NCBI GenBank assembly: GCA_964016885.1
Contig: OZ024740.1
Coordinates: 367,288,001 to 367,352,000 of the forward strand
Source of the DNA: Eledone cirrhosa
Lineage: Eukaryota
Reading direction: 5' to 3'
Length of the DNA: 64,000 nt
The position numbers were made by a program, and so were the translations under genes. How positions within the stretch are numbered: position 1 is the stretch's first letter; each line of letters begins with the position of its first letter. A model generated the notes under the pieces. It was given only the letters and a program-made list of their open reading frames with translations. It was not told where the DNA came from and did no database searches. Positions 3,247 through 64,000 of this stretch are shown here, in pieces.

Positions 3247-3348
<102 letters not shown>

Positions 3349-3509
3349 TTAGTTATACTATTTATGGTTATGTAAACACAAAACCTTAAGCAGTTGTAAG
3401 TATTTTACACACACCCTAAATAGTGGTAGGCAGTAATGTATTACTACCTTATTACCAGTAAGTTAAGTAGCTCAATGTAAAAACATCAGATGATTTACAG
3501 AGCAGTTAT

Positions 3510-5813
3510 ATGAATACTAACAATTTTGACTCCTTCGGCTTTAAAACCTTTAAAAGCCCCCCTCATAACACTCTACTTAACTCCTTTGAAAATGACCTAG
3601 TTAAACTAGTTAAGAACATTAAATACAATAAGCACCATATTAGAAGCAACACCTTCTTAAACAAACTTAACACTTCTATTAGTGGATTCAAAACTAGTAA
3701 TAAAATTATTGTACACGCAGATAAAACTAATAACATATACAGCCTAGATTATATTACTTATAGAAAGTTTATATATAATGAACTACATAAAAGCTACAAA
3801 AAAACCACCTTGAAAAACTTAGAAGATATTAATGTAGAGGGTTATAATATAGTGTCTAAACTAGGACTACAGAGGCATACACAACCTTTCACTCCGAACC
3901 CCCCTAGATTCTCTCTGAAGGACCATAAGGAGAACTTCATCAGCAACCCCACGATAAGACTTATCTGCCCTTCCAAGTCCGACATTGGTATTATCAGCAA
4001 GAAGATTTTGGATAAAATCATCCCACAAATTAAACACAAGATACACCTTAAACAATGGGGAAATACGGGTGAAGTAATTGAATGGTTTAAGGATATCAAG
4101 AATAATAAGAACAAAAAATTTATTCAATTTGATATCAATTCATACTACACCTCTATTTCCCCTATCCTATTAAATAAGGCACTTATCATGGCCATGACCA
4201 ATAGCGACCTGACTAGAGCCCAGGTTGATGTCATCCTTGCGGCCCGTAAAACCATAATCACCTTCGAGGACCAACTATGGACACGCAAGGATACGCACAA
4301 CAACTTCGACATAACCATGGGATCTAGTGACTCGGCGCAGGTCACTGATTTGGTCGGCCTATACCTCCTCAATGAAATCCATAAAGACCTCCCTTACCTC
4401 AACGGTGGTTTGTACCGCGATGATGCACTTCTACTCATAGAATATAAAAAATTTAATATAGAAAGAACTAGAAAACAACTGCATAAGACATTCAAAAACT
4501 TTAACCTTAGTATCACCATGGACAAAAACACTAAAAATGTTAACTTCCTAGACGCCACACTATACCTAGACTCAAAAATATATACACCTTTCCATAAGCC
4601 TAATGAGAAACTTATTTACGTAGATACCAAGTCTAATCACCCTAGATCAATATTAAACTCTATCTCTAAGGGGGTGTCCAATAGAATCTCTAGTCTGTCC
4701 TATGACGCAAACATATTTAGCAAAAACTCACAATATTACAATCAAGCATTAGCTAGCTTCGGCCATAATATAGAAATAGAGTTCCTACCTAAGAAAACAC
4801 ATAGCTACAACATCATCTCGCACAACATGTCCATGAGGAAATCTAATAATAGGAATAGCAACCACAAGTACACCAAAGCGGAGGGTGCCACCGGAAGTAA
4901 CCATTACCATGGAAACTACTGTGAGGCCTTAGGAGGAAGCAACACATCAAACACTAAAAGCAAAAATAGAAGAAGAAATAATACATTTTTCAACCCTCCT
5001 TTCAACCTAAATGTCTCCACCAACATACCTAGGGCTTTCTTCTCACTACTAGATAAAAACTTCCCTCTAGGACACAAGTACCACAACCTCTTAAACAAAA
5101 ACACCATTAAAATCTCATACTCTACGACGCCTAACTTAGCATACCACATAGCTAGCAGCAATAATAGTAAAATTAGTTCTTACTTCCAACAAACAAAATC
5201 ACGACGGGATGCAAACCCTCTAAATACCACTGTAGCAAGCAACAATAGCAACGGCAGTAACAATAGAAATAACACTAGTATAAGTAATAACACCAGGGTT
5301 GTCAACCTGAACACCCAAAATCCTATATCCACCACACAGACTTCCGCATTGCATTATAACCAGCGGACTAACGCACAGAATAATTGTAACTGTAGAGCTA
5401 ATAGAACCTGCCCCTTAGATAAAAAATGCCTAACCAAGGATGTCATATACTCATGCACAGTCACGACTAATAACTCTTCAGAAACCTATGTAGGCTCCAC
5501 TTCTAACTGCTTCAAAATTAGATATAACTCGCACATCCACTCGTTCAAAAAGCACAGCCTAGCCAACTCCACCTCACTTTCTAGCTACATACACTATCTA
5601 AAATCTAAAAATAAACCATACACACTCAAATGGGAAGTGATAGGCAGCGCGACCTCGTACAAACCACCTAATAAATTCTGTAACCTCTGTATACTAGAGA
5701 CACACAATATTATCTTCTCCAACCGTAACCTACTTAACAAAAAATCTGAGGTGTTTGCAACTTGCCAACACCGCCTCAGACATTCCTTCCAAAACTTTAA
5801 GCCCTATATATAG
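3510..5813 (+). CDS. PLE polyprotein: reverse transcriptase + C-terminal GIY-YIG endonuclease, probably N-terminally truncated
   Basis: RT motifs FIQFDINSYYTSI, TMGSSDSAQVTDLVGLYLL, GLYRDD, VNFLD and the SNHP thumb. FFNPP linker, CNC..CPL..C zinc motif, VIY..TYVGST..FK.R...H GIY-YIG core, and CNLC..E..LNKKSE..C.H tail. Confidence 0.93.
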   Translation: MNTNNFDSFGFKTFKSPPHNTLLNSFENDLVKLVKNIKYNKHHIRSNTFLNKLNTSISGFKTSNKIIVHADKTNNIYSLDYITYRKFIYNELHKSYKKTTLKNLEDINVEGYNIVSKLGLQRHTQPFTPNPPRFSLKDHKENFISNPTIRLICPSKSDIGIISKKILDKIIPQIKHKIHLKQWGNTGEVIEWFKDIKNNKNKKFIQFDINSYYTSISPILLNKALIMAMTNSDLTRAQVDVILAARKTIITFEDQLWTRKDTHNNFDITMGSSDSAQVTDLVGLYLLNEIHKDLPYLNGGLYRDDALLLIEYKKFNIERTRKQLHKTFKNFNLSITMDKNTKNVNFLDATLYLDSKIYTPFHKPNEKLIYVDTKSNHPRSILNSISKGVSNRISSLSYDANIFSKNSQYYNQALASFGHNIEIEFLPKKTHSYNIISHNMSMRKSNNRNSNHKYTKAEGATGSNHYHGNYCEALGGSNTSNTKSKNRRRNNTFFNPPFNLNVSTNIPRAFFSLLDKNFPLGHKYHNLLNKNTIKISYSTTPNLAYHIASSNNSKISSYFQQTKSRRDANPLNTTVASNNSNGSNNRNNTSISNNTRVVNLNTQNPISTTQTSALHYNQRTNAQNNCNCRANRTCPLDKKCLTKDVIYSCTVTTNNSSETYVGSTSNCFKIRYNSHIHSFKKHSLANSTSLSSYIHYLKSKNKPYTLKWEVIGSATSYKPPNKFCNLCILETHNIIFSNRNLLNKKSEVFATCQHRLRHSFQNFKPYI

Positions 5814-7253
5814 CAATGTCGGACTGGAACCTAACACCACATCTAGCATCAAACACCAGAGACACACCCTATACTACATACCCAACACTAGCTGATCCAT
5901 TATAACACAAACAACGACATCCCTCTGGAACCCTTCGCAGGGAAAATACCCATTTATACCTCTACGGCAGGTGTGACAACATCCACCCACCTGGACGGCA
6001 CTACACCGCTCTAAGGGTAATTTGAGCATGAATTGATCGGTTGGATGGTGTTGGGCAGAGGAAACACCTTCCTTAGACAGATGTAAAATGATTTAATCGA
6101 GTAGCGCTGTTGACCAGTAGGACCGGGCTGCTGAGCGCAGTGAGTGAATGCAATGCAACTGCCGTGCGGGTTGTACGTATATGGATGATCTGACGGTCAG
6201 AGAGGGGTCGCGAGGACTGCGGATTGACCTTTGGCCTGCCTGGGGACGATTATCTTTCGACATCCAATGTAGCAAGCGATGACCCAGATCTTACCAGAGA
6301 TCATTGGGTCCTGAAGCAATCCTGCAATCACCGCGCCTGGTCATATGAGCAGACTACAACCACAGAGATCATTAATTTAGAATCCTCGCTCATCATCTAT
6401 AATTTCCATTTGTAGCACCTTAAGATGGGTTAATCCACCTTAATAATAATATGATCACCTTCAGCATAATTTAGTTAAACTACTCTATAGTTAGTGCACT
6501 TTATGCTTTAAAAGTCTCTCTTGGAAGGTGCACCTCACCATAGAATTTAGGGTCCATATTGGGACACATTTTAATGGCTAGATATAGAAACCCCAGAGTT
6601 ACCTCCCCGCATGCATTAACTCCCCTTAGCCACACACACACTTCCGGTATTCAATGGCGTCTCTCGAAACGTAACAACCTCCTGTATCGAACTAAAGAAC
6701 ACCAGACTACGATCTCTAACTGGATTGTCGTGGATTATGTGAAAGGCATATAATCGAAATATACACTCCCTTGACCATGAAAATGCCGAAGTACATGAAT
6801 TACTTGACATCCCTGCGTTGTGCATCTCCAATACTTATAACACTTTTAATGCTTGCACTATCTTTAATACTTATAATATTTCTCCACACACAGACTACAT
6901 CAATCATATAAAGACTTTGCCACCAGATCTACCAACCTAACACTCTTATTTACCTACCTAAGTGCCTCTACCACACATATCTCTCTGCCACACTATATAA
7001 ACAAGACGCACATGCGTGCCACACATATAACATTTGCACTATATAACCACTTATCTTCATGTTGTACTTTAACCTATATCTTTGATTTTTGATTGTACCT
7101 ATTAATATAAATGTAATCTCGAAGTGTGTACTGCCACTCTAAATTTTGTAATGAATGTTGACCCACAATGTTTGAATATGTATCAATGTTTGAATATGTA
7201 TTGGTATGTCTCTCGGCTGAAAAGGAGGTCATATAACTGTCCATGCATTAATA

Positions 7254-7308
7254 AATTGCTCCGAAGAATCCAAACCTCGGTTTGGAGGAAACAGCTGTAA
7301 GCACAATA
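7254..7308 (+). ncRNA. Type I hammerhead ribozyme in the PLE terminus (CCGAAGA core variant)
   Basis: attgct-CCGAAGA-a-tccaaacc(tc)ggtttgga-g-GAAAC-AGCT-GTA-agcacaat: stem I, 8-bp stem II, palindromic stem III ACAGCTGT, GUA cleavage triplet. Confidence 0.8.
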
Positions 7309-7377
7309 ATGTTTTGAACAGTTCTTTGATTCTTATATTTCATATATTTCATATATTTCATATTTCATATATTTCAT

Positions 7378-24128: not shown

Positions 24129-24186
<58 letters not shown>

Positions 24187-24473
24187 AAATAACGAAACGA
24201 AATTAAATTTCGTTTCGTTTGTAACTCACTTTTGTATGACTGACGCTTAAACAATTAAGTTAAAAATGTACATCCACATATGTATACTGAAATACTAGTA
24301 TGCATATGAATACACACACGTATACATATGTAGATGTACCAAGTTTTTCACTGGTCACTTTACCGTGAGTGTCCAGCTATTCTGTATGTAAACACACAGA
24401 CAAACCGGTTTTTAGAGTCATACTGGTTTTTGAGGAAACACCTTTCCTCTATTCTCCAGAAAGCCAGACAAGG

Positions 24474-24518
24474 AATATTGAACTAGTTTCGTTGTTGTTA
24501 CAACTCATCAGCAATATT
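24474..24518 (-). ncRNA. Minimal type I hammerhead ribozyme (family A, inverted copy)
   Basis: Exact reverse complement of 24714-24758. Confidence 0.9.
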
Positions 24519-24713
24519 TACCTATCTACCGGCCTTTCTGGAGAATCGTAAAAGCACATATCGTTTCGTTTCGTTATTTGTTTTTATCGTCTCCGTTGAA
24601 CCGGTACGTACTCACACTCTATGCAAATTAGTCTGCCCACTACTAATTTTCATAGAAAAAGCATATAACGATATGTGCTTTTACGATTCTCCAGAAAGGC
24701 CGGTAGATAGGTA

Positions 24714-24758
24714 AATATTGCTGATGAGTTGTAACAACAACGAAACTAGTTCAATATT
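24714..24758 (+). ncRNA. Minimal type I hammerhead ribozyme (family A)
   Basis: aatattg-CTGATGA-gttg(taacaa)caac-GAAAC-TA-GTT-caatatt: perfect 7-bp stem I, 4-bp stem II, palindromic stem III AACTAGTT. Confidence 0.92.
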
Positions 24759-25179
24759 CCTTGTCTGGCTTTCTGGAGAATAGAGGAAAAGTGTTTCCTC
24801 AAAAACCAGTATGACTCTAAAAACCGGTTTGTCTGTGTGTTTACATACAGAATAGCTGGACACTCACGGTAAAGTGACCAGTGAAAAACTTGGTACATCT
24901 ACATATGTATACGTGTGTGTATTCATATGCATACTAGTATTTCAGTATACATATGTGGATGTACATTTTTAACTTAATTGTTTAAGCGTCAGTCATACAA
25001 AAGTGAGTTACAAACGAAACGAAATTTAATTTCGTTTCGTTATTTGTTTTTATCGTCTCCGTTGAACCGGTACGTACTCACACTCTATGCAAATTAGTCT
25101 GCCCACTACTAATTTTCATAGAAAAAGCATATAACGATATGTGCTTTTACGATTCTCCAGAAAGGCCGCTAGATAGGTA

Positions 25180-25224
25180 AATATTGCTGATGAGTTGTAA
25201 CAACAACGAAACTAGTTCAATACT
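25180..25224 (+). ncRNA. Minimal type I hammerhead ribozyme (family A, second monomer)
   Basis: Same as 24714-24758 except one distal stem I mismatch (caatact). Confidence 0.9.
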
Positions 25225-25445
25225 CCTTGTCTGGCTTTCTGGAGAATAGAGGAAAGGTGTTTCCTCAAAAACCAGTATGACTCTAAAAACCGGTTTGTCT
25301 GTGTGTTTACATACAGAATAGCTGGACACTCACGGTAAAGTGACCAGTGAAAAACTTGGTACATCTACATATGTATACGTGTGTGTATTCATATGCATAC
25401 TAGTATTTCAGTATACATATGTGGATGTACATTTTTAACTTAATT

Positions 25446-26860
<1,415 letters not shown>

Positions 26861-28900: not shown

Positions 28901-28967
28901 CCTGTATATAATGCTCAGTATTTATACTTTGAGCTTGTTAATTGCAGGGTAACTCTGTATTTTAATT

Positions 28968-32989: not shown

Positions 32990-33278
32990 ACAGCTCAATG
33001 TAGGATAATTAGTATACTACAGAGCCGTTATAAGTTTGGGAATAACCAAAGAGTGCTTAGAAACACATTGTTTTATTTGCTAACAGTGTTTCATCCATAC
33101 CCTATGGCAGAAATTATCAGAGTTTATAAACGAAAATATATCAGAGGTTGCAGAGCCTACAACCTCTGATATCTCTCTCTGTTTATAAGCTCTGATGATT
33201 CCTGCCATGGTGTATGGATGAAACACTGTTAGCAAATAAAAGAATGTGTTTCTAAGCACTCTTTGGTTATTCCTAAAC
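32990..33278. mobile_element. Palindromic solo PLE pseudo-LTR (~245-bp fold-back) with two opposed HHRs
   Basis: Arms 33034-33278 centred at ~33155. Conserved hairpin at 32993-33025. (TA)n flanks. Confidence 0.8.
33186..33236 (+). ncRNA. Type I HHR; the inverted copy at ~33076-33126 has a CTGATAA core
   Basis: aagct-CTGATGA(33192)-ttcc tgccatggtgta tggat-GAAAC-ACT-GTT-agc. Confidence 0.72.
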
Positions 33279-33309
<31 letters not shown>

Positions 33310-41255: not shown

Positions 41256-42582
41256 CATTAACTTTCCATCTGATGTTCTTCCGCGTACTCAAAACAACAT
41301 AAACGTATGTAACGGGTAATTTTAATAGTTTAATCTGGTGTATCAAAACGATCAGTGTTACGTTGAAAATGAATGTGAACATATTCACAGGGGCTAACTA
41401 CACATTATAAAAAAAGCAGGTAAAATATAGTTAATGTCAGTGAAGAGTGGTCACCTCCTATAAACCACCTTCGTTCAAATGCGCATAATCTATAATATAC
41501 ATATAAGCAGTTTTGTAAAAAGCGAATCTGTTTTAACTTTTTTTACGAACATATTCCTTTATAAAAACTGTAAATATTACTAATACTTTCTTATTATTTT
41601 TTCTTGGGTTATAATTTTTGGAATTGTTCTTTTCTTTATACCAAGCATTTGGGGATTCTGAACTACTAGGAGTATGACCCAAAACATAGAGGGGTGAAAT
41701 TGTCAACATTATTGCTTTGTTCATGGCCTCAAAACAACATTCGCCACTGCATTCCACTTAACTGTAGATATGTATAAGTTCTATGTGAAATCTAAACCTC
41801 TAAATAGTTGAAGTATACATAAGCAAGATTTTTGTGAGCTTAGAGTATTATGCATATTAAACGGAAAAGGAAAGGTTTGACATCCATAAACTAAGGGTAA
41901 AAGACGTGTTTCGTAAGGCTCCAACTGAGAAATTGATTATGGATCTCGCAATAACATCTGCTCTCTCTTTCTGTGTCGTGAACAAAACATAAGACTGGAA
42001 ACCAAACGATTAAAGCTAATTTTAAATTCTCCATTCGAAAAGAATTCTAGCTTGCGAACATTCACATGTAAAAGCGGCACAGTTAAACTTAGCACAACGA
42101 ATAATTGAAACTGAAATTAAGTTAATATTTTCTTTAGAAAAGTTCCCGCAGGCGATAAATAAGAGCAAAGGCAAGAAAGTAGGAAAAACGTAAGAAAGTG
42201 AAGATAATGTATACAAATACACAAACTGTTATGTTTCGAAGAATTTTAATCCTCATTAGCATCACAAATGTCAAGTTTTGTTTATAGTGAGTTTCAAATT
42301 ATGTATGCTTACGCTACTTCTAACCGCTTTATCTAAGATTCTTTTTTCCATCCATCTCTTTTTCTCTCTCACTCTCAGTCTACCGCTCTCTCTATCTTTC
42401 TACACACACACATATATATTCATATATATATATATATAAGGATTAAAATACTGGAGCGTGTTGGAGTTAAACACCCTCTTCGTATTATAGAAATGACAGT
42501 AAAAGGTATAGCTCAATGTAATTAAACAGAGCCGAAGAATTATGAAAATAAAACAAAGAAGCCTTCAATACATCAAAAGTCT

Positions 42583-42634
42583 TTATTAGCCAACAATGTT
42601 TCGTCCTATTAAGGACTCATCAGGGCAATTAAAA
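42583..42634 (-). ncRNA. Type I hammerhead ribozyme in the PLE 3' terminus
   Basis: Minus strand: aattgcc-CTGATGA-gtcct(taat)aggac-GAAAC-ATT-GTT-ggctaat. Confidence 0.85.
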
Positions 42635-44293
42635 CAACAAGAAGTATTATCGGCCAATACAAGCCGAAAACACCGAAGAATATGGAGTGTACATACACTA
42701 AAGTATTGCAAGATTATGGGTAAAAATATATAATAAAAATCACTAAGGAGGTGTATAACATTTAGAACCATATTACAAATATAGTCCAAAGCAAAAAAAA
42801 AACAAAAAAACACAACAAACCTAGAGCGAAAAAAAGGTGGTTATATAGAGCGGGAATTATATATAATACTATATAATATAATATAATATACTTGTAACAA
42901 TATTAAGATAAAAATAAAAAATAAAAGGCACAATATACATATGTATATATGTACGCACACGTACGCACATATACATATACATCAATACACATATCCATCA
43001 TTAACAGCACAAATTAAACCTTATTAAGAGTTTAAACATAAATAAGCAAGATAGGAATAAAAATAATAATAATACGTATATCTAATATACATGAAGTAAT
43101 GAAATGATTAAAAGTAACACATATAATATATAATAAACTATATAATTATATAATATATAATATAATATAATAGATAATCACCGGTTAATTTACACAAACA
43201 ATATAGATGTCACAATAATACTATAATAATAATATAATAATATATATAATATATAATGGCATGTAAGTTAACAAATCAATTCATATAGAGTTACAGAGTA
43301 GGTGAGAAAAAAATATAAATTGTACAATACCCAAAATTATGATGGAACAGAAATATAAACATCTTACATGATATATAAAATTTAACATATCATAATGGTA
43401 CATAAAGTCAACGGTAAGTAATAAGGATCAATAGTACAATAACAACTACAATATAAAATAATGAACATAATATAATATATAATTACTTATAATTACAAGG
43501 TTGGTAAACAGATATATATGTGGATGAGTGAGTAAGGGCCAGGCAGAAAATAGAATGCACAGTAGTATTAATAAATAAATAAATAAATAAATAAAATCAA
43601 CCGGAAATTAAAAAACAAAAACAAAAGTATTTACTTAGGTCTCACATGCAGTTAAGTAAAAACTTAGGAAACAACCCAGGTAAATGACTCGAAAACCCTA
43701 ATTGATAAATTAATATTGAACATATTTAAAATATCCAATAAGGCAATACAATATTAGCTATGGTTTAAGTAATCAAAATTTATAAACATTAATATTTCAC
43801 TACAAATATATATATAAAGGAATGAAATTTTCTACTATCATTTACATAACGATATCTAAAAAACTGACTTAAGCAAAATTATGGTAGGCTAATAGGGACA
43901 GAAAAAAAGAAATGTATGATGATACAAAGGAGCATAAAATCATAATCAATATACTGTATTATATAATAGAAAGGAGCATAAAAGAGGGGGGGGGTTAAAT
44001 AGAATCATAATATATTTGAAGGGGTTGACAATAAGTTTATGTGTGCATGGGGTGTGGGGGGAAATGGGTGGTGGTGGTAAAATAAAATGAAATAAAATAA
44101 TGTAAAATATATAATCAGATATATACTCATAAGGTGTTAATAGTGAAAATTTAATGTGTAAGAAGATAGATATGGTATAGTAGCCAAAAGATTATGAGAG
44201 CTAGAATAAAAAGTTGTCAAAAACCAATGATAATAATGATGATGGTAAACAAAAAGAACCTAAACTAAAAAAATAAGTTATGGAATATATCAG

Positions 44294-45300
44294 CTAATGG
44301 ATATAATTTATACTACTAGAACCTTTAGGTTTATAATAAAAGTAAGAGTTAGAAATAGCGTGGGGGCAAGAAGAGAATATCTCAGACTTTCTATTAAGTA
44401 AGGATTCACTAGAGAAAATTATAGAGTGTGTCTCGAGGATACAGAGATTACAAAATTTAGTATGTGTAGAAAGGTTATTAGAGCGTGCTACTAAACGCCA
44501 ATTAAGGCTATATGGTATATTAGCCCCCTTAAGATCCCAGATATAGTGTGCTAAAGAAGTAGAATTCTTAAACTTAACATGTTTGAAATTAGAGATATGA
44601 GAATTAAACCTAGTCTTAAAAGTGTTAGATGTAGAGCCTATAGAAGTTCTATTAGAGGAATTAGTTATAACTACGCAAGCATAGACGATGTTCTTTGAGA
44701 GGCAGTTACCGTTTAAAGGGCAGTCAGCACTCACTCTACAGTTACACTTCCGGGTGCTATTGGTTGGCTGAAGTAGTGATGTATTACACGTAGGATTACT
44801 ATTAGATAAGGTCTGCTCTGGTGGTAAGGCATTTACAGATCTGTTCAGACTAGTAGTATGTAGAGAGGAGTATCCATCCCTAATTTTCCTATTGTTAGTG
44901 CTAGCTAAATGAGAACTAATATTAGGGGTGGTAGAGAATGAAAGTTTAATAACATTTTTATTAAAAATACTATGGTATTTATGAGAAGGGGGGAAATTTT
45001 TCTCTAAGATAGAAAAGAAAGACCTAGGGATATTAGTTAATACTTCCTGATTATATGGCGGGTTAAAATAAGTATTTAGTCTCCTTCTATTTTTATCCTT
45101 ACTGACTCTACCATTATCTAATATCCCATTATTAAGACCAGGGTTATTACAAGGATTAGTTAAAACCGCATTATTAGAATCAGCCAAAATTCCATTAAGT
45201 CTCTTACTGTTTCTACCTCTAGTAGATCTGCTGCCGTCTGGAATCCCATCAAAATGATTAGGGCCAATAATAGGATCAGTAGAAACAACATTATTAGAAT
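44294..45300 (-). pseudogene. PLE linker + GIY-YIG endonuclease; RT lost by 5' truncation
   Basis: YFNPP..IKLSFSTTPN..CNCR..CPLNGNCLSKNIVY..IGSTSNTFKTRFNSH..FCNLCILE..LLNRKSE, a paralog of the 3510-5813 C-terminus. Confidence 0.9.
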
Positions 45301-45483
45301 TAGATCTTTTTTTTTTTTTTTTTTTTGCTTTGGACTATATTTGCAATATGGTTCTAAATGTTATAACCTCCTTAGTGATTTTTATTATATATTTTTACCC
45401 ATAATCTTGTAATACTTTAGTGTATGTACACTCCATATTCTTCGGAGTTTTCGGCTTGTATTGGCCGATAATGCTTCTTGTTG

Positions 45484-45535
45484 TTTTAATTGCCCTGATG
45501 AGTCCTTAATAGGACGAAACATTGTTGGTTAATAA
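45484..45535 (+). ncRNA. Type I hammerhead ribozyme (inverted pseudo-LTR copy)
   Basis: CTGATGA(45495)-gtcct(taat)aggac-GAAAC-ATT-GTT-ggttaat. Confidence 0.83.
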
Positions 45536-45574
45536 AGACTTTTGATGTATTGAAGGCTTCTTTGTTTTATTTTC

Positions 45575-45644
<70 letters not shown>

Positions 45645-45799: not shown

Positions 45800-47858
45800 T
45801 GGAAACTTTTGGAGATAGTCCCCAGTGCGCCTATGACAATCGGGATCACTTTGACTTCATGGCAGTTCCAAATCCTTTTCACCTCCCCTTTAGGTCCTGG
45901 TATCGGTTAATTTTCTCCCTCTCCTTCTCTTGCACTCTCGTGTCGAACGGGCAGGCCACATCCACAATCAGACACGATCTTTTTTCTTTGTCCACAACCA
46001 CCAGGTCAGGTCTATTGTGTTCCAGTTTTTTGTCCATCTGTATCCTAAAATCCCACAGCACCTTCACCTGATTGTTTTCCATCACCGCCTCTGGCCTATG
46101 CTCATACCATTTCTCAGAATGTGGTAAATTGTTTACTTTGCACAGGTGCCAGTGGATCACCCTGCCCATCACATCGTGTCTCCAGCCCTTATAGTGGGTC
46201 TGGGCTAGGTGTTTACACTCGGACACAATGTGAGCCACATTCTCCTCTCTCTCTCCACAGATCCTGCACAGTGGGCTAGCCTCCTCCTTGTAGATATGGT
46301 GCTTCAACCACTTCGTTTTGAGGGCCTGCTCCTGCGCAGCCATTAGCATTCCTCCTGTAGCCTTTTTGAGGTCTCCTCTTCTCAACCAGTTCCATGTCTG
46401 TGGATCTCTAAATTCAGTTTTCTCAAAGAAGGTACTATGAAGGGATTTTCCCTTAAGGCTGCTCTTCCTCCTTGATGTTATTTCCTCCTTGGACATCCCC
46501 TGGCCTACTGTCCCCTCCTTCAGTACAGTTCTGAGCAATGGCTCCTTACTATAGGTCACGTATTTGTATAGGTTGTTTTTCTCCATCCGAACACAGTCCT
46601 CTATGCTGATAAGACCTCTTCCACCCTCAGATCTCCTTAGGTAGAGTCTATCGACATCACTCCTCTTGTGGAACATGTTTTAGATAGTCAATAGCTTCCT
46701 AGTCTTCCTATCCATTTCTTTTTGTTCAGCAACATTCCATCTCAGAATTCCCGCACTGTACCTAATAATAGACACAGCTCGGGCATTTACTGCGCTTATG
46801 GCATTTCTGCTGTTCAGATGTGACTTCAATACGCTCCTTACTCTTCGAATGTATTCAGTTCTTAACAATTCCTTCATTTTTTTGTTCTTTATGCCATCAG
46901 CCTCCAGAACGCCCAAATACTTGTATCCTTCCTCAGAGTCAATTTCCTTTATCATCTCACCTGTTGGTATCTGGATCCCGTTACTTCTGCTCAACCTACC
47001 CCTCTTCATCACAATGACTCCACATTTACCAATACCAAACTGCATACATATATCACTGCTGAAAATACGGACAGTGTCAACAAGCACATCCAACTCCTTC
47101 TCACTTTTCCCGAAGAGCTTAAGATCGTCCATGAAGAGGAGGTGATTGATGGTAAGCTCTCCCCTTCCCAACTTGTATCCTGCTCTCACTTTTCGCAGCA
47201 TAATGGTCAAGGGCATCAGGGCAAGGACAAACAACAGAGGGGACAGGCTATCTCCCTGGAAGATATCTCTCTTGATCTTCACGCTTCCCAAGGATATTCC
47301 AGTTGATGTCAACTCTGTCTCCCAGGACCCCATACTCCTGCCTAGCAACTGTCTGATGTTATCTGCCACCCTGAAGATCTCCAGGCTTTTGGTGATCCAA
47401 GAATGAGGCACCATGTCAAATGCCTTTTTGTAGTCTATCCATCCCATGGCAAGACCAGTGTGTCTCCTCCTGCAATTCCCCATTACCATCTTATCAATAA
47501 GTAACTGGTCCTTTGTACCACGTGACTTCTTTCGGCATCCTTTCTGTTCGTCCGGTAACAAGTTGTTTGTGTGGAGGTGATGGTAGATTTCCTCAGACAC
47601 AATGCTCGTCAACAGTTTCCACATTACGGACAGACATGTGATAGGTCTATAGTTGGTAACATCATTACCCTTGATTCGGTCTTTCATTATCAGAACTGTG
47701 GTACCTTTTGTCAACCACTCTGGCACCTCACCCGACACCAAGCAGTCATTGAACATGGCCGTCAGCTTCGGGTGGAGGGATGTTAAATGTTTAATCCAAT
47801 ACCCTGCACACCATCTGGGCCTGGTGATTTCCAGTTGGTTAGTTTTTTGGCCTGCCCC
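45800..47858 (-). mobile_element. R4/Dong-type non-LTR retrotransposon copy 1 (RT + CCHC + restriction-like endonuclease), truncated at both ends, one nonsense codon
   Basis: NWKSPGPDG, YRPITCL, IDYKKAFDMV, IFQGDSLSP, HLLFMDD, YKYLG. In-frame stop at 46680-46682, then CRIC..H..C and RPDLVVVD..IVDVACP.D..E.EK..Y (RLE). Its 5' end abuts (TAA)n. Confidence 0.9.
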
Positions 47859-47893
<35 letters not shown>

Positions 47894-47929
47894 GGCCTGC
47901 CCCTTATTATTATTATTATTATTATTATT
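47859..47929. repeat. (TTA)n tract with a duplicated ggcctgcccc
   Basis: ggcctgcccc at 47849-47858 and 47894-47903, each followed by (TTA)n. Confidence 0.9.
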
Positions 47930-49832
47930 TGCATTTATCTTGCTTTATGTTTATACGAGTTATCACCAAGTCACAACCAGTGACCTCAAGAGACAACAAG
48001 GTCCGCCATGTTCAAGAAAGAACACACATATTCACACATGCATCCTTAGTGTTTAGACTTGTGATGTACTTATATTGACAGGATCTTCCTTAGTATATGG
48101 GCAGTTCCCATTAGTACTATCTTTTGTATTTCTCCTATACGCGGGTTTCCTGGGATTTGCGATAAGTAGTCGTTAGACCCCTTAGGTATCATTCCCAGAG
48201 CGCCTACAACCACTGGTATTGTTTTAGTTCTCAATTTCCACATTTTTCCAATTTCTATCTCCAGGTCCTTATACTTGCTCAATTTTTCAAATGTTTTTAT
48301 AGATACATTCTTGTCTATTGGAACAGACATATCAATTAGCAGGCATACCCTCCTTTGAAAGTCCTTCAATATTATATCAGGTCTATTTGCATCTATTTTT
48401 CGGTCTGTTTGGATGCTAAAGTTCCACAAGATTGAGATGTGATCTTTTTCAAGTATGGGAGGTGGTTGATGCTCCCACCAATTCTTTTGATGGGGCAGGT
48501 CAAAATGCTTGCACATTATCCAATGTATGTATTGTGCAGCTCTGTCATGCCTGTTTAGGTATTCGGTTGGAGCTATAGGACTGCACATTGAAATTATATG
48601 GTCAATGGTCTCTGGTTGTTTTTTGCATACACGGCATAATGGGCTGCACCCATTTTTTATTATGTTGGCTTGGTAATTTTTTGTTGGCAGACACTGATCT
48701 TGTGCGGATATAATCAGTCCTTCAGTCTCCGATTTCAGTCCAGAGGATGCCAACCACTGATGGGTTAAAGTTTTGTCAACATCAGGATTGTTAGCTCGCT
48801 CTGGGTATTTTCCATAGAGAGGCTTTTCTTGCCATTTCTTAGCCAGTTTCTGTAGCAGTTCTTTCTTTGCAGTTACTTTTACCTGCTTTGCTTTTTCTGT
48901 GTTTTCCATTTCAGCAGTAAATGGGACTTCTGAAATTTGTAGTCCATTACTGTATCTTTGTGCATCTTTTGTAATGGAATATGATCTTTTGGTGCTTTCG
49001 TGTTTCAAAACGAGTTTGATCATCCAATCATGTGATTCCCTTAGATATGTGGATAATCCAATTGTTGCAGTTTTCAACGCAATGTCTAACTGGATTAACC
49101 CACGTCCTCCTTCTTTCCTAGGGAGATATATTCTATCTATGTCTGCCTTAGGGTGATGCATTCTGTGCATGGTTAAGAATTTTCGGATTTTTGTATCGAG
49201 CCTACGGATCTCTGTGCTTGACCAGTTGATGACATTGTAACTGTAGGTTACTACTGGTATGGCAAGCGTGTTTATGGCATCGATCCTATTCCTTGCATTC
49301 AATTCCGTTCTTAAGATTGCTCTGACTCTGCGGTAACATTCCTTCCTTATCCTTTCCCTCATTGTCGAGTGCTTGATTCCGTCTCCTTCACAAACACCTA
49401 GATATTTGTAAGTTTGTTCTTGATCAAGCTCTCTTATCACGTTCCCCCGATCAAGATTAATGTCTGAACTCTTCAGCAGCTTTCCTCTGGTGAACGTTGC
49501 TTTGGCGCATTTATCCAGTCCAAACTCCATTTTAATGTCATCACTGAACTGCTTCACAGTGGATAATAGCCCTTGCAATTGTTCATCATTTTTTGCAAAT
49601 AGTTTCAGGTCATCCATGTAGAACAGGTGATTAATGGTTTTGTCATAGACTCTATATCCATGTTTTGTTTCATTGAGCATTTTACTTAATGGTATAAGTG
49701 CGATGCAGAATAAAAGCGGTGATAAAGAGTCACCCTGAAAAATTCCACAATTAATGTTAACTTCTCCAGCTTCCAGTGATTTTGTTTCACTATTCAAAAG
49801 GAGTGTCGTTCTCCATGTCCTCATACTGAATG
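47930..49832 (-). mobile_element. R4/Dong-type non-LTR retrotransposon copy 2, 5'-truncated, with (TAA)n at both ends
   Basis: Open 584-aa frame, ~140-bp 3' UTR, TAA repeats at 47904-47929 and 49833-49872. Confidence 0.92.
48070..49824 (-). CDS. RT C-terminal half + CCHC zinc knuckle + PD-(D/E)xK restriction-like endonuclease (truncated but open ORF)
   Basis: GIFQGDSLSP, HLFYMDD, YKYLG, CRVC..ETIDHIISMC..RHD, NRPDII..LIDMSVP.D...EKLSKYKDL, PVVVGALG. Confidence 0.9.
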   Translation of the reverse strand: MRTWRTTLLLNSETKSLEAGEVNINCGIFQGDSLSPLLFCIALIPLSKMLNETKHGYRVYDKTINHLFYMDDLKLFAKNDEQLQGLLSTVKQFSDDIKMEFGLDKCAKATFTRGKLLKSSDINLDRGNVIRELDQEQTYKYLGVCEGDGIKHSTMRERIRKECYRRVRAILRTELNARNRIDAINTLAIPVVTYSYNVINWSSTEIRRLDTKIRKFLTMHRMHHPKADIDRIYLPRKEGGRGLIQLDIALKTATIGLSTYLRESHDWMIKLVLKHESTKRSYSITKDAQRYSNGLQISEVPFTAEMENTEKAKQVKVTAKKELLQKLAKKWQEKPLYGKYPERANNPDVDKTLTHQWLASSGLKSETEGLIISAQDQCLPTKNYQANIIKNGCSPLCRVCKKQPETIDHIISMCSPIAPTEYLNRHDRAAQYIHWIMCKHFDLPHQKNWWEHQPPPILEKDHISILWNFSIQTDRKIDANRPDIILKDFQRRVCLLIDMSVPIDKNVSIKTFEKLSKYKDLEIEIGKMWKLRTKTIPVVVGALGMIPKGSNDYLSQIPGNPRIGEIQKIVLMGTAHILRKILSI

Positions 49833-49904
49833 ATTATTATTATTATTATTATTATTATTAATATTATTATTATAAATTAATGCAAAGGATGAAAGATGCG
49901 TTGT

Positions 49905-62263: not shown

Positions 62264-63176
62264 TCTATATATATAAAACTGTGGTTGTCTGTCTGTCTAT
62301 CGATTTTTGGCACACATCTCCTCTTAGAATCTCTCACGGAATTGCACCGAAATTGCTATACTTGTACATTGAGCCCTAGCGAAGACATCGGAAAAAAAAA
62401 ATTTCAAATTGACCCACCCTATGTGACGAAATCGAATATAATGTATCGATTTTTGAGCGTAAGTTATCAGTTATTTCCCTTTGTTCTGTTTACATTGAAC
62501 GTCTTACGTAAAAAATTACGCTGGCTTTAACAGTTGTCGAGCCAGCAAAATATTGACCTGCAAAATTCATCAGTTCGAACACTAAGCTTCCGTTTTGCTT
62601 CATTTCCATTTAAAAGCATTTTAAAACAATATTTTTACTTGAAAACAAGTCTATTTAAAGACTACGTCAAACAAGCAAATATTTCGTCGTTAGGCGTGCA
62701 GACAGACAGTCGTGCAGACAGACAGTCGTGCAGAGAGGTGATATACGCGTGCAGACAGACAGTCGTGCAGAGAGGTGATATAGGCGTGCAGACAGACAGT
62801 CGTGCAGAGAGGTGATATAGGCGTGCAGACAGACAGTCGTGCAGAGAGGTGATATAGGCGTGCAGACAGACATAACTGATAATTTGGTTACGCTAATGTT
62901 TTTCTCTGCGTTGCAGTGTTTACATTTTCGATCTTTGTTAATAAATAACCAGTGCAGTTTCTATCCCCAGCATCCTCTTTTGTTATAACATTCGGGTTAT
63001 CGTTATGTTTCTTAACTTCATAAGGCATATTGTTGGTTGAGGGAATATTAATCAAAAACACCACATGCAAGTCTGCACAGTAGACACTACAGTTTTTAAG
63101 CCAAGAAAGAAACTCAACATTGTAACTTTAACACAGCTACTGAGCGACCCCGAGCAACGCCGGGCTTTACTGCTAG
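62264..63176 (+). mobile_element. Non-autonomous Helitron, copy 1 (913 bp)
   Basis: 5' TC preceded by A (62263). 3' CTAG at 63173-63176 preceded by the GC hairpin cccgagc-aac-gccggg (63149-63164). No TSD and no ORF. Confidence 0.85.
62692..62872. repeat. 37-bp minisatellite inside the Helitron (also at ~63603-63770)
   Basis: gcgtgcagacagacagtcgtgcagagaggtgatatag-type units start at 62747, 62784, 62821 and 62858. Confidence 0.92.
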
Positions 63177-64000
63177 TCTATATATATAAAACTGTGGTTG
63201 TCTGTCTGTCTATCGATTTTTGGCACACATCTCCTCTTAGAATCCCTCACGGAATTGCACCGAAATTGCTATACTTGTACATTGAGCCCTAGCGAAGACA
63301 TCGGAAAAAAAAATTTCAAATTGACCCACCCTATGTGACGAAATCGAATATAATGTATCGATTTTTGAGCGTAAGTTATCAGTTATTTCCCTTTGTTCTG
63401 TTTACATTGAGCGTCTTACGTAAAAAATTACAATACACGAACAGTTGTCGAGCCAGCAAAATATTGACCTGCAAAATTCATCAGTTCGAATACTAAGCTT
63501 CCGTTTTGCTTCATTTCCATTTAAAAGCATTTTAAAACAATATTTTTACTTGAAAACAAGTCTATTTAAAGACTACGTAAAACAAGCAAATATTTCGTCG
63601 TTAGGCGTGCAGACAGATAGTCGTGCAGAGAGGTGATATACGCGTGCAGACAGATAGTCGTGCAGAGAGGTGATATAGGCGTGCAGACAGATAGTCGTGC
63701 AGAGAGCTGATATAGGCGTGCAGACAGACAGTCGTGCAGAGAGGTGATATAGGCGTGCAGACAGACATAACTGATAATTTGGTTACGCTAATGTTTTTCT
63801 CTGCGTTGCAGTGTTTACATTTTCGATCTTTGTTAATAAATAACCAGTGCAGTTTCTATCCCCAGCATCCTCTTTTGTTATAACATTCGGGTTATCGTTA
63901 TGTTTTCTTAACTTCATAAGGCATATTGTTGGTTGAGGGAATATTAATCAAAAACACCACATGCAAGTCTGCACAGTAGACACTACAGTTTTTAAGCCAA
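63177..64000 (+). mobile_element. Non-autonomous Helitron, tandem copy 2 (runs off the window)
   Basis: Head-to-tail junction CTAG|TCTATATA, near-identical to copy 1. Confidence 0.85.

What the first reader, a model, noticed from the sequence alone, without database searches (positions are those of the whole stretch)
42511..42532. Unannotated conserved hairpin (GCTC-TGT..ACA-TT-GAGC on the element strand) ~50-60 nt downstream of PLE hammerheads, at three independent loci
Seen on the + strand: GCTC-AA-TGTAAA..TTTACA-GAGC (3470-3503), GCTC-AA-TGTAG..CTACA-GAGC (32993-33025) and GCTC-AA-TGT..ACA-GAGC (42511-42532). The basal stem and 2-nt bulge are invariant, the loop length varies, the upper stem covaries, and the surrounding sequences are unalignable. 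At 33025 and 42532 it lies ~56-60 nt 3' of the HHR cleavage site on the element strand. At 3470 it is in the inverted 5' piece of the PLE, and rejoining that piece to the 7340 end puts it ~50 nt after the 7299 site. Inference: a cis-acting RNA/DNA signal of this PLE clade near the 5' end of the HHR-cleaved RNA, possibly an RT recognition/priming site or a translation or stability element.
Basis: partly seen in the sequence, partly recalled or inferred. Interest (0 to 1): 0.8.

Follow-up and report, generated by a model that had tools for sequence, protein, structure and literature searches.

The report
Twin hairpins set retrotransposon copying starts
This small bulged hairpin is one of a pair in the leader of Hydra-clade Penelope-like jumping genes; genomic copies end 6-7 bases before one or the other hairpin, and two-armed insertions use one of each, so the pair likely tells the element's reverse transcriptase where to start copying.

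Summary
The hairpin is real (17,517 genome matches against 86 for a reversed control) and lies in the 5' leader of Hydra-clade Penelope-like elements. Of 159 copy ends picked only by their hammerhead, 155 lie just 5' of hp1 (84) or hp2 (71), at a gap of 6-7 nt, while 24 equally TA-rich decoy sites are never used. In 41 of 41 classifiable two-armed insertions one arm ends at hp1 and the other at hp2. The motif covaries across related elements in metagenome contigs, occurs in published coral and sea-cucumber Hydra sequences, and is kept by non-coding families whose hammerhead lies elsewhere or is missing. Most likely the hairpins dock the reverse transcriptase and set the two internal start sites; priming at both from the two DNA ends would explain the one-sided 'tail' and inverted ends of these elements. 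Binding and priming are inferred, not shown; one family ignores its hp1. I found no description of the motif in nine literature searches or in Rfam.

The parts
42511..42532 (-). Hairpin 1 (hp1) of family E: GCUC-UG..CA-UU-GAGC, the feature reported
   Evidence: 59 nt after hammerhead cut; 163-171 nt before the ATG in 23 of 30 protein-picked loci
42438..42510 (-). Tail of the left arm; it ends into (TA)n where read-through copies continue into hairpin 2, which is not copied
   Evidence: hp2 in read-through copies L185, L292
42592..42623 (-). Type I hammerhead core of the left arm (predicted cut after 42592)
   Evidence: (Hammerhead_1, 29.1 bits, below gathering score)
42438..45307 (-). Left (hp2-ended) arm of a family E insertion, holding the 3' half of the ORF (44294-45334: CxCx5C linker and GIY-YIG endonuclease)
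45321..45579 (+). Right (hp1-ended) arm of the same insertion: hammerhead 45495-45526, ends 6 nt before the place of hp1
3470..3503 (-). hp1 of family B
3343..3514 (-). Short left arm of a family B insertion: tail plus 10 nt; ends at the hp2 site, and its inner boundary lies where the hp1-ended arm starts
   Evidence: 100% to L326
3513..7346 (+). Long right arm: 5'-truncated Hydra-type RT/GIY-YIG ORF (3510-5813), hammerhead variant core CCGAAGA (7261-7299), ends at the hp1 site
32992..33120 (-). Left arm of a family C insertion with hp1 at 32993-33025; cut off right after hp1, so it fits neither end class
33192..33283 (+). Right arm of the family C insertion: hammerhead 33192-33230, ends at the hp1 site
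28913..28934 (+). Fourth hairpin, variant with an A-U pair above the bulge, in a fragment related to non-coding family K

Best explanation
The hairpin is one of two copies of a bulged stem-loop in the 5' leader of Hydra-clade Penelope-like elements; genomic copies end 6-7 bases 5' of either copy, so each hairpin is likely a docking site that sets an internal start of reverse transcription. Shown: the pair, its position between hammerhead and ATG, covariation above a 2-nt U-N bulge, the 6-7 nt gap, and one hp1 end plus one hp2 end per two-armed insertion, both arms from the same template and either arm the longer. Inferred: the element's protein binds the invariant GCUC/UNGAGC face (predicted U.A-U triple, arginine-sandwich type), its endonuclease cuts both strands of (TA)n, and each 3'-OH primes cDNA just upstream of one hairpin, likely by two subunits of a dimer on one RNA. 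The two cDNAs are then joined at their far ends, which would give the head-to-head inverted repeat with the hp1-hp2 interval as a 'tail' on one side only. If only one side primes, a one-armed copy results.
For: 155 of 159 ends of hammerhead-picked arms lie within 14 nt 5' of hp1 or hp2 in three families with different spacings. 104 and 103 of 112 arms with clean flanks fit a gap of 6 and 7 nt; 24 of 24 TA-rich tracts not followed by a hairpin, up to 9 nt long, have no ends. hp2 was predicted for family C from the end position and found in 4 read-through copies, followed by the ORF. Two-armed insertions: 41 mixed, 0 same-type, 1 unclassified among 42 hammerhead-picked pairs; 51, 1 and 2 among all 54. 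Partner arms differ by 0.040 against 0.119 for non-partners (35 of 40 closer than the median), and hp1 arm longer 21, hp2 longer 17, equal 8 of 46. Metagenome relatives: 93 sense against 9 antisense sites; with a 2-nt bulge the first three upper pairs are Watson-Crick in 77, 55 and 43 of 79 distinct hairpins against shuffle means 41, 24, 20; 10 of 14 informative-looking ends lie at a hairpin. Non-coding families G and K follow the same rule. In vitro, the Poseidon-clade PAc protein cuts and extends both target strands, starts at two internal sites that bound the tail, needs RNA 3' of the start sites and is a predicted dimer (PMC11167929).
Against: No binding or priming experiment, and no RNA data. 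Family H has a canonical hp1 but 0 of 30 copies end there; 23 end before a long-loop variant of hp2 whose fold is the minimum-energy one in only 1 of 4 copies, and no inverted arm was found in 30: the hairpin is not sufficient. Many insertions appear one-armed: an adjacent inverted arm was detected for only 28 of 78 evaluable E/AB/C arms (an undercount, since one reference subfamily stops the alignment early) and 10 of 30 G arms. The wobble test does not pick the strand (G-U 10, A-C 7; sense more stable in 27, antisense in 42 of 78). The basal stem barely varies (G-C 71, U-A 2, A-U 1, mismatched 6 of 80 at the closing pair), so its pairing rests on little covariation. The shuffle control ignores relatedness. 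The PAc start region shown in its Fig. S1 has no such motif, so it may be limited to this clade.
Confidence: 0.72

Rival explanations
1. The hairpin directs RNA 3'-end formation (self-cleavage, a host nuclease or the element's own protein cutting 6-7 nt upstream), and reverse transcription simply starts at the resulting RNA ends.
For: It predicts the same fixed gap and the loss of the hairpin that defines each end. An AATAAA follows the hammerhead in the own-genome families.
Against: It does not explain why two-armed insertions always join one hp1 and one hp2 end (41 of 41), since cutting at hp1 separates it from hp2. Read-through tandem copies are common in G, H, K. PAc starts internally on uncut RNA (PMC11167929). 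No Rfam ribozyme matches the hairpin among the 150 listed hits.
Confidence: 0.1
2. The motif acts in DNA: the endonuclease recognises it in a cDNA or double-stranded intermediate and trims the copy 6-7 nt from it before joining ('EN-mediated resolution'), possibly after self-priming on an antisense template.
For: This reading of the tail is in print (PMC8557442 section 6 passage; self-priming in PMC3846280). The strand test is inconclusive.
Against: Variable 8-35 nt loops with covarying pairs fit a single-stranded fold, not a duplex site. Snap-back copying cannot make an hp1 arm longer than the hp2 arm, seen in 21 of 46 pairs, e.g. 3.8 kb against 0.17 kb in this window. PAc tail ends coincide with RT start sites in vitro.
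Confidence: 0.12
3. The hairpin is a translation or stability element for the hammerhead-cut RNA, and ends are set by TA microhomology alone.
For: It lies in the 5' leader at a fairly constant 36-71 nt from the hammerhead cut, and several end sites overlap TATA.
Against: 24 of 24 decoy TA tracts have no ends and the family E hp2 site has only 1 nt of microhomology; non-coding families keep both hairpins.
Confidence: 0.04

Closest known systems
Two internal RT start sites and the 'tail' of the Poseidon element PAc of Anolis carolinensis (Frangieh et al. 2024, PMC11167929; parts 1-2 of 4 of the text and two supplements seen)
   Same: Internal initiation at two sites, the interval between them being the tail; both target strands extended; sequence 3' of the start needed; hammerhead dispensable; dimer predicted.
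   Different: There the binding motif was only hypothesised and the start lies in an AC-rich stem-loop inside the ORF. Here a duplicated, covarying motif lies 6-7 nt 3' of each start, in the 5' leader, and each two-armed insertion uses both.
Hydra clade of Penelope-like elements (Craig et al. 2021, PMC8557442; section 11, passages and supplement searches seen)
   Same: RWK/RWR, DKT, CxCx5C, no CCHH, hammerhead, (TA)n targets; published Hydra-1_Ajap begins with both hairpins, and Hydra-2_Amil and Hydra-2_Ajap carry hp1.
   Different: The hairpins are not annotated there ('hairpin' 0 hits in the stored, cut supplement, 'stem-loop' 0 in the main text). Units here are 4.2-4.7 kb, longer than the usual <3 kb.
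Conserved 3' stem-loop of eel LINE UnaL2 and its SINE (PMC1636434, abstract seen); HBV epsilon (PMC1885660, abstract seen)
   Same: A bulged stem-loop that the element's reverse transcriptase needs, shared with non-autonomous partners (UnaL2) or setting the start (epsilon).
   Different: UnaL2's loop lies 5' of the start and is copied; epsilon templates protein priming. Here the hairpin lies 3' of the start, is left out of the copy it defines, and comes as a pair.
Arginine sandwich motif of HIV TAR and 7SK SL1 (PMC6189040, passages seen)
   Same: Same local secondary structure: purine, bulged U-N, then G-C and A-U pairs.
   Different: Circularly permuted relative to TAR; triple and arginine binding untested; no sign of common origin.
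Twin priming of LINE-1 (recalled, not read here)
   Same: Two target 3' ends prime two cDNAs that join into an inverted insertion.
   Different: In LINE-1 the second start is an internal site chosen by chance complementarity and the arms do not overlap; here both starts are fixed by RNA motifs and the arms overlap.

Membership tests
Hydra-clade PLE (host element) | Single ORF, RT followed by C-terminal GIY-YIG endonuclease | tested here: met
   819-aa ORF in L326; homologues carry PF01541/PF26215; Pfam itself gave no hit on the window ORF
Hydra-clade PLE (host element) | RWK motif and DKG changed to DKT | tested here: met
   R-W-K/R in 106, 109, 109 of 113 aligned proteins; D-K 113, T 102 of 113
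Hydra-clade PLE (host element) | CxCX5C linker, no CCHH, CxxC and CxH near the end | tested here: met
   read by eye from the translations
Hydra-clade PLE (host element) | Hammerhead in the pseudo-LTR and (TA)n targets | tested here: met
Hydra-clade PLE (host element) | Generally short (<3 kb) | tested here: not met
   pLTR-to-pLTR 4.2-4.7 kb in L326, L038, L292; described as typical, not strict
Hydra-clade PLE (host element) | Groups with Hydra references in an RT phylogeny | not tested
   no tree built
RT docking / start-setting RNA stem-loop | Fixed position relative to the first copied base | tested here: met
   gap 6-7 nt in 104/103 of 112 arms
RT docking / start-setting RNA stem-loop | Conserved structure, kept by non-autonomous partners | tested here: met
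   family H ignores its hp1
RT docking / start-setting RNA stem-loop | Acts in RNA and binds the element's protein | not testable with these tools
   strand test inconclusive
Arginine sandwich motif | Invariant bulged U before G-C and A-U pairs, second bulge base free | tested here: met
   bulge UU 54, UC 14, UA 9 of 79
Arginine sandwich motif | U.A-U triple and stacked arginine | not testable with these tools
   candidate basic R/K-R-x-R-W-K/R helix conserved at residues 35-40, inference only
Any Rfam 15 family | Covariance-model match over the hairpin | tested here: not met
   none of the 150 listed of 164 hits at E<=5 overlaps 42511-42532

The most novel reading that the evidence does not exclude
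Hydra-clade elements integrate by programmed double priming: a protein dimer grips two arginine-sandwich hairpins on one RNA and starts two cDNAs, one from each end of a double-strand cut in (TA)n. This would be the cis-code and mechanism behind the one-sided tail and inverted ends of Penelope-like elements, the licence that retrozymes carry to be copied, and a portable two-hairpin tag for internally started, target-primed insertion by a telomerase-like RT.
Probability: 0.5. Interest if true: 0.9.

Novelty: new variant of a known kind. Interest (0 to 1): 0.8.

Why it matters
How Penelope-like elements, the sister group of telomerase, choose where to start copying, and why their insertions have inverted ends with a tail on one side only, are open questions; the one biochemical study located two start sites but not the signal. 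This pair of hairpins gives a concrete signal with a 6-7 nt ruler, a prediction for every end, and a two-start model that simple mutations can test. It also gives sequence-level evidence for which machinery moves non-coding retrozyme arrays, and a motif for finding and delimiting Hydra-clade copies (over 20,000 hairpins in this genome alone).

Tried and rejected
Chance match: rejected. SECIS or other Rfam family: no match. TA microhomology alone: rejected by decoy tracts. Snap-back as the only source of the second arm: rejected by long hp1 arms. Strand assignment by wobble pairs and folding energy: inconclusive. Viral contigs hold no relative. A first pairing run gave false 'other' arms in family C because the reference held an inverted piece; it was redone with a trimmed reference. 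The 'opposite arm' column for family H is microsatellite noise; one search replaces it. Relaxed look-alikes at 62483 and 63395 belong to an unrelated repeat. Earlier scan findings: 0 by the full word set and by sequence; 8 shown of 43 by three words concern other clades and do not describe this motif. The paper on small PLE hammerhead variants that cleave as dimers (recalled) is not held and could mention flanking structures.

Full report
Observation. The window lies in a 3.0-Gb genome (G000) with 17,517 exact matches to the pattern against 86 for the reversed control; a C-G variant pattern adds 8,179 against 1,496. Each window hairpin belongs to an insertion of a different family (B at 3343-7346, C at 32992-33283, E at 42438-45579).

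Host element. The ORF at 3510-5813 is a 5'-truncated RT/GIY-YIG protein with 745 homologues at E<=1e-20 among 8,000 scored candidates, the named ones molluscan. It has the features listed for the Hydra clade in section 11 of PMC8557442: RWK/RWR, DKT, CxCx5C, no CCHH, hammerhead, (TA)n targets. No tree was built. In full-length copies the order is hammerhead, hp1, hp2, ATG. In family E, hp1 lies 163-171 nt before the ATG in 23 of 30 loci picked by protein alone; the other 7 are truncated, inverted or damaged there.

The hairpin is one of a pair. Read-through copies show a second hairpin of the form GCUC-C...G-UU-GAGC 101 (E), 163-166 (A/B) and 111 nt (C) after hp1. For family C, I first saw where copies end, searched for copies that run on, and found hp2 right there in 4 copies that continue into the ORF; the other 7 listed rows ran into flank or microsatellite and were not followed. 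In 77 metagenome contigs found with the protein alignment, 48 carry the motif on the sense strand and 4 on the antisense; many contigs lack the leader. Of 61 distinct hammerhead-like cores, 39 have hp1 36-71 nt after the cut and 23 of these have hp2 43-85 nt further; most of the 22 others end in (TA)n, at a contig end, or are spurious cores. Published Hydra-1_Ajap starts with both hairpins and two more published Hydra sequences carry hp1; the passages seen of Hydra-1_Obim and Hydra-1_Crog show no canonical copy.

Structure. Anchoring only on GCTC and GAGC(A/G)C, 79 distinct metagenome hairpins pair in the 2-nt-bulge register: 77, 55 and 43 Watson-Crick at the first three upper pairs against shuffle means of 41, 24 and 20 (0 of 2,000 shuffles reach them); registers with 0, 1 or 3 bulged bases show no comparable excess. 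The first upper pair is C-G 51, U-A 24, G-C 2, and A-U in family K. The first bulged base is U in 77 of 79, the second varies. The basal CUC/GAG is invariant by design of the search, and the closing pair is G-C 71, U-A 2, A-U 1, mismatched 6 of 80; U-A also closes hp2 of families G and H. The shuffle ignores relatedness. Wobble pairs and energies do not tell which strand folds. The local pattern equals that of the TAR and 7SK arginine sandwich (PMC6189040 passages); this is a resemblance only.

Ends follow the hairpins. I collected copies by hammerhead pattern alone (150 loci, the first places on contig C1), dropped duplicates and arms with under 250 nt of downstream sequence, and aligned 165 arms to natural read-through copies. 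Six read through, 84 end within 14 nt 5' of hp1, 71 within 14 nt 5' of hp2, 4 elsewhere. For the 112 arms with a clean (TA)n flank, allowing for microhomology, 104 fit a gap of 6 nt and 103 a gap of 7 nt. Of 28 alternating TA tracts in the four reference leaders, the 4 that precede a hairpin hold ends and the other 24 hold none. In metagenome contigs 10 ends lie at hp1 or hp2, 4 elsewhere (matches between different families), 13 read through, 3 touch a contig edge.

Two-armed insertions use both. Among 42 inverted pairs within 7 kb in hammerhead-picked loci, 41 join an hp1 end to an hp2 end, none joins like ends, one has an unclassified arm; in all loci the counts are 51, 1 and 2 of 54. Partner arms are nearly identical (0.040 against 0.119; 35 of 40 closer than the median non-partner). 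Of 46 pairs with contiguous sequence (5 had gaps), the hp1 arm is longer in 21, the hp2 arm in 17, equal in 8; a few of these switch points are rough. So both arms come from one template and each is started on its own. That the tail sits on one side only is known (PMC3846280 passages; PMC8557442); the strict rule and the signal were not found in print.

Non-coding partners. Family G (655-nt unit, longest open frame 94 aa) has 13 ends at hp1, 10 at hp2, 6 read-through, 1 other of 30. Family K (472-nt unit) has, by eye, 7, 9 and 14 read-through of 30. Their intact hammerhead cores lie about 300 and 190 nt before hp1, so ribozyme spacing does not set the ends; G also has a degenerate hammerhead-like remnant at the usual place.

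Against. Family H (582-nt unit, no hammerhead core found) has a canonical hp1 where 0 of 30 copies end; 23 end before a long-loop hp2-like stem, 4 read through, 3 end elsewhere, and none has an inverted arm. The hairpin is therefore not sufficient. An adjacent inverted arm was detected for only 28 of 78 evaluable E/AB/C arms and 10 of 30 G arms; this undercounts, but some copies clearly run from their 5' boundary straight into (TA)n. Nothing here shows binding.

Mechanism. Shown: position, pairing, ruler, one-of-each rule. From the literature: PAc starts internally at two sites that bound the tail, extends both strands, needs RNA 3' of the starts, does not need hammerhead cleavage and is a predicted dimer (PMC11167929). 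Inferred: the Hydra protein docks on each hairpin and starts 6-7 nt upstream (0.72); a dimer on one RNA primes from both DNA ends (about 0.5). Rivals are RNA 3'-end formation (0.10), DNA-level trimming (0.12) and a translation or stability role (0.04).

Novelty. Nine full-text searches (one search was for the TAR comparison) and Rfam gave no description of the motif. Seen: PMC11167929 parts 1-2 of 4 and supplements 1 and 3 (Fig. S2 and the GenBank file not seen); PMC8557442 passages, section 11 and searches of a cut supplement; PMC4209133 part 1 of 4; PMC7229834, PMC3846280, PMC2377424, PMC6189040 passages; bioRxiv 2026.07.22.740005 part 1 of 5 and passages, supplements not seen; PMC1636434 and PMC1885660 abstracts. 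Repbase notes and subscription papers could not be searched and may mention it. RT-recognition stem-loops are a known kind; a duplicated one that lies 3' of the start, is left out of the copy, and programs both ends of an insertion is a new variant. Interest 0.8.

Noticed in passing
window 24180-25470: Another hammerhead-bearing non-coding element (HH9-like hits, 466-nt tandem unit plus inverted arm, in (TA)n). Its two arms also end at two different sites about 67 nt apart, each followed by CGTC after 3-4 nt, but without the GCTC/GAGC hairpin: possibly another clade's paired signal.
   Followed up: no
window 7261-7299; Families A/B carry a hammerhead core variant CCGAAGA (C for U at position 4) in about 4,950 exact pattern matches; activity unknown.
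   Followed up: no
window 42575-42590, 33230-33245 and loci: AATAAA follows hammerhead stem I in most own-genome families, then a U-rich stretch: a possible polyadenylation signal upstream of hp1.
   Followed up: no
L339-L368 (family H): Abundant non-coding family (1,744 pattern matches) with no hammerhead core found, one canonical hairpin that is never used as an end, a long-loop second hairpin, and no inverted arms.
   Followed up: partly
L406-L425: Many more families carry C-G and A-U hairpin variants, some directly before other Hydra-type ORF starts, others in non-coding units sharing a GGCTGYTATTT word 15-25 nt downstream of hp2.
   Followed up: partly
window 62270-63990: About 900-nt tandem repeat with internal short repeats, unrelated to the PLEs, holding a hairpin look-alike at 62483 and 63395.
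   Followed up: no
window 45879-49833 (-): LINE-type reverse transcriptase ORF pieces (RVT_1, weak zf-RVT).
   Followed up: no
L030, L252, window 3514: Three of ten short hp2 arms stop 7-10 nt before hp1, where the partner arm starts, as if the trailing RT met the leading complex.
   Followed up: partly
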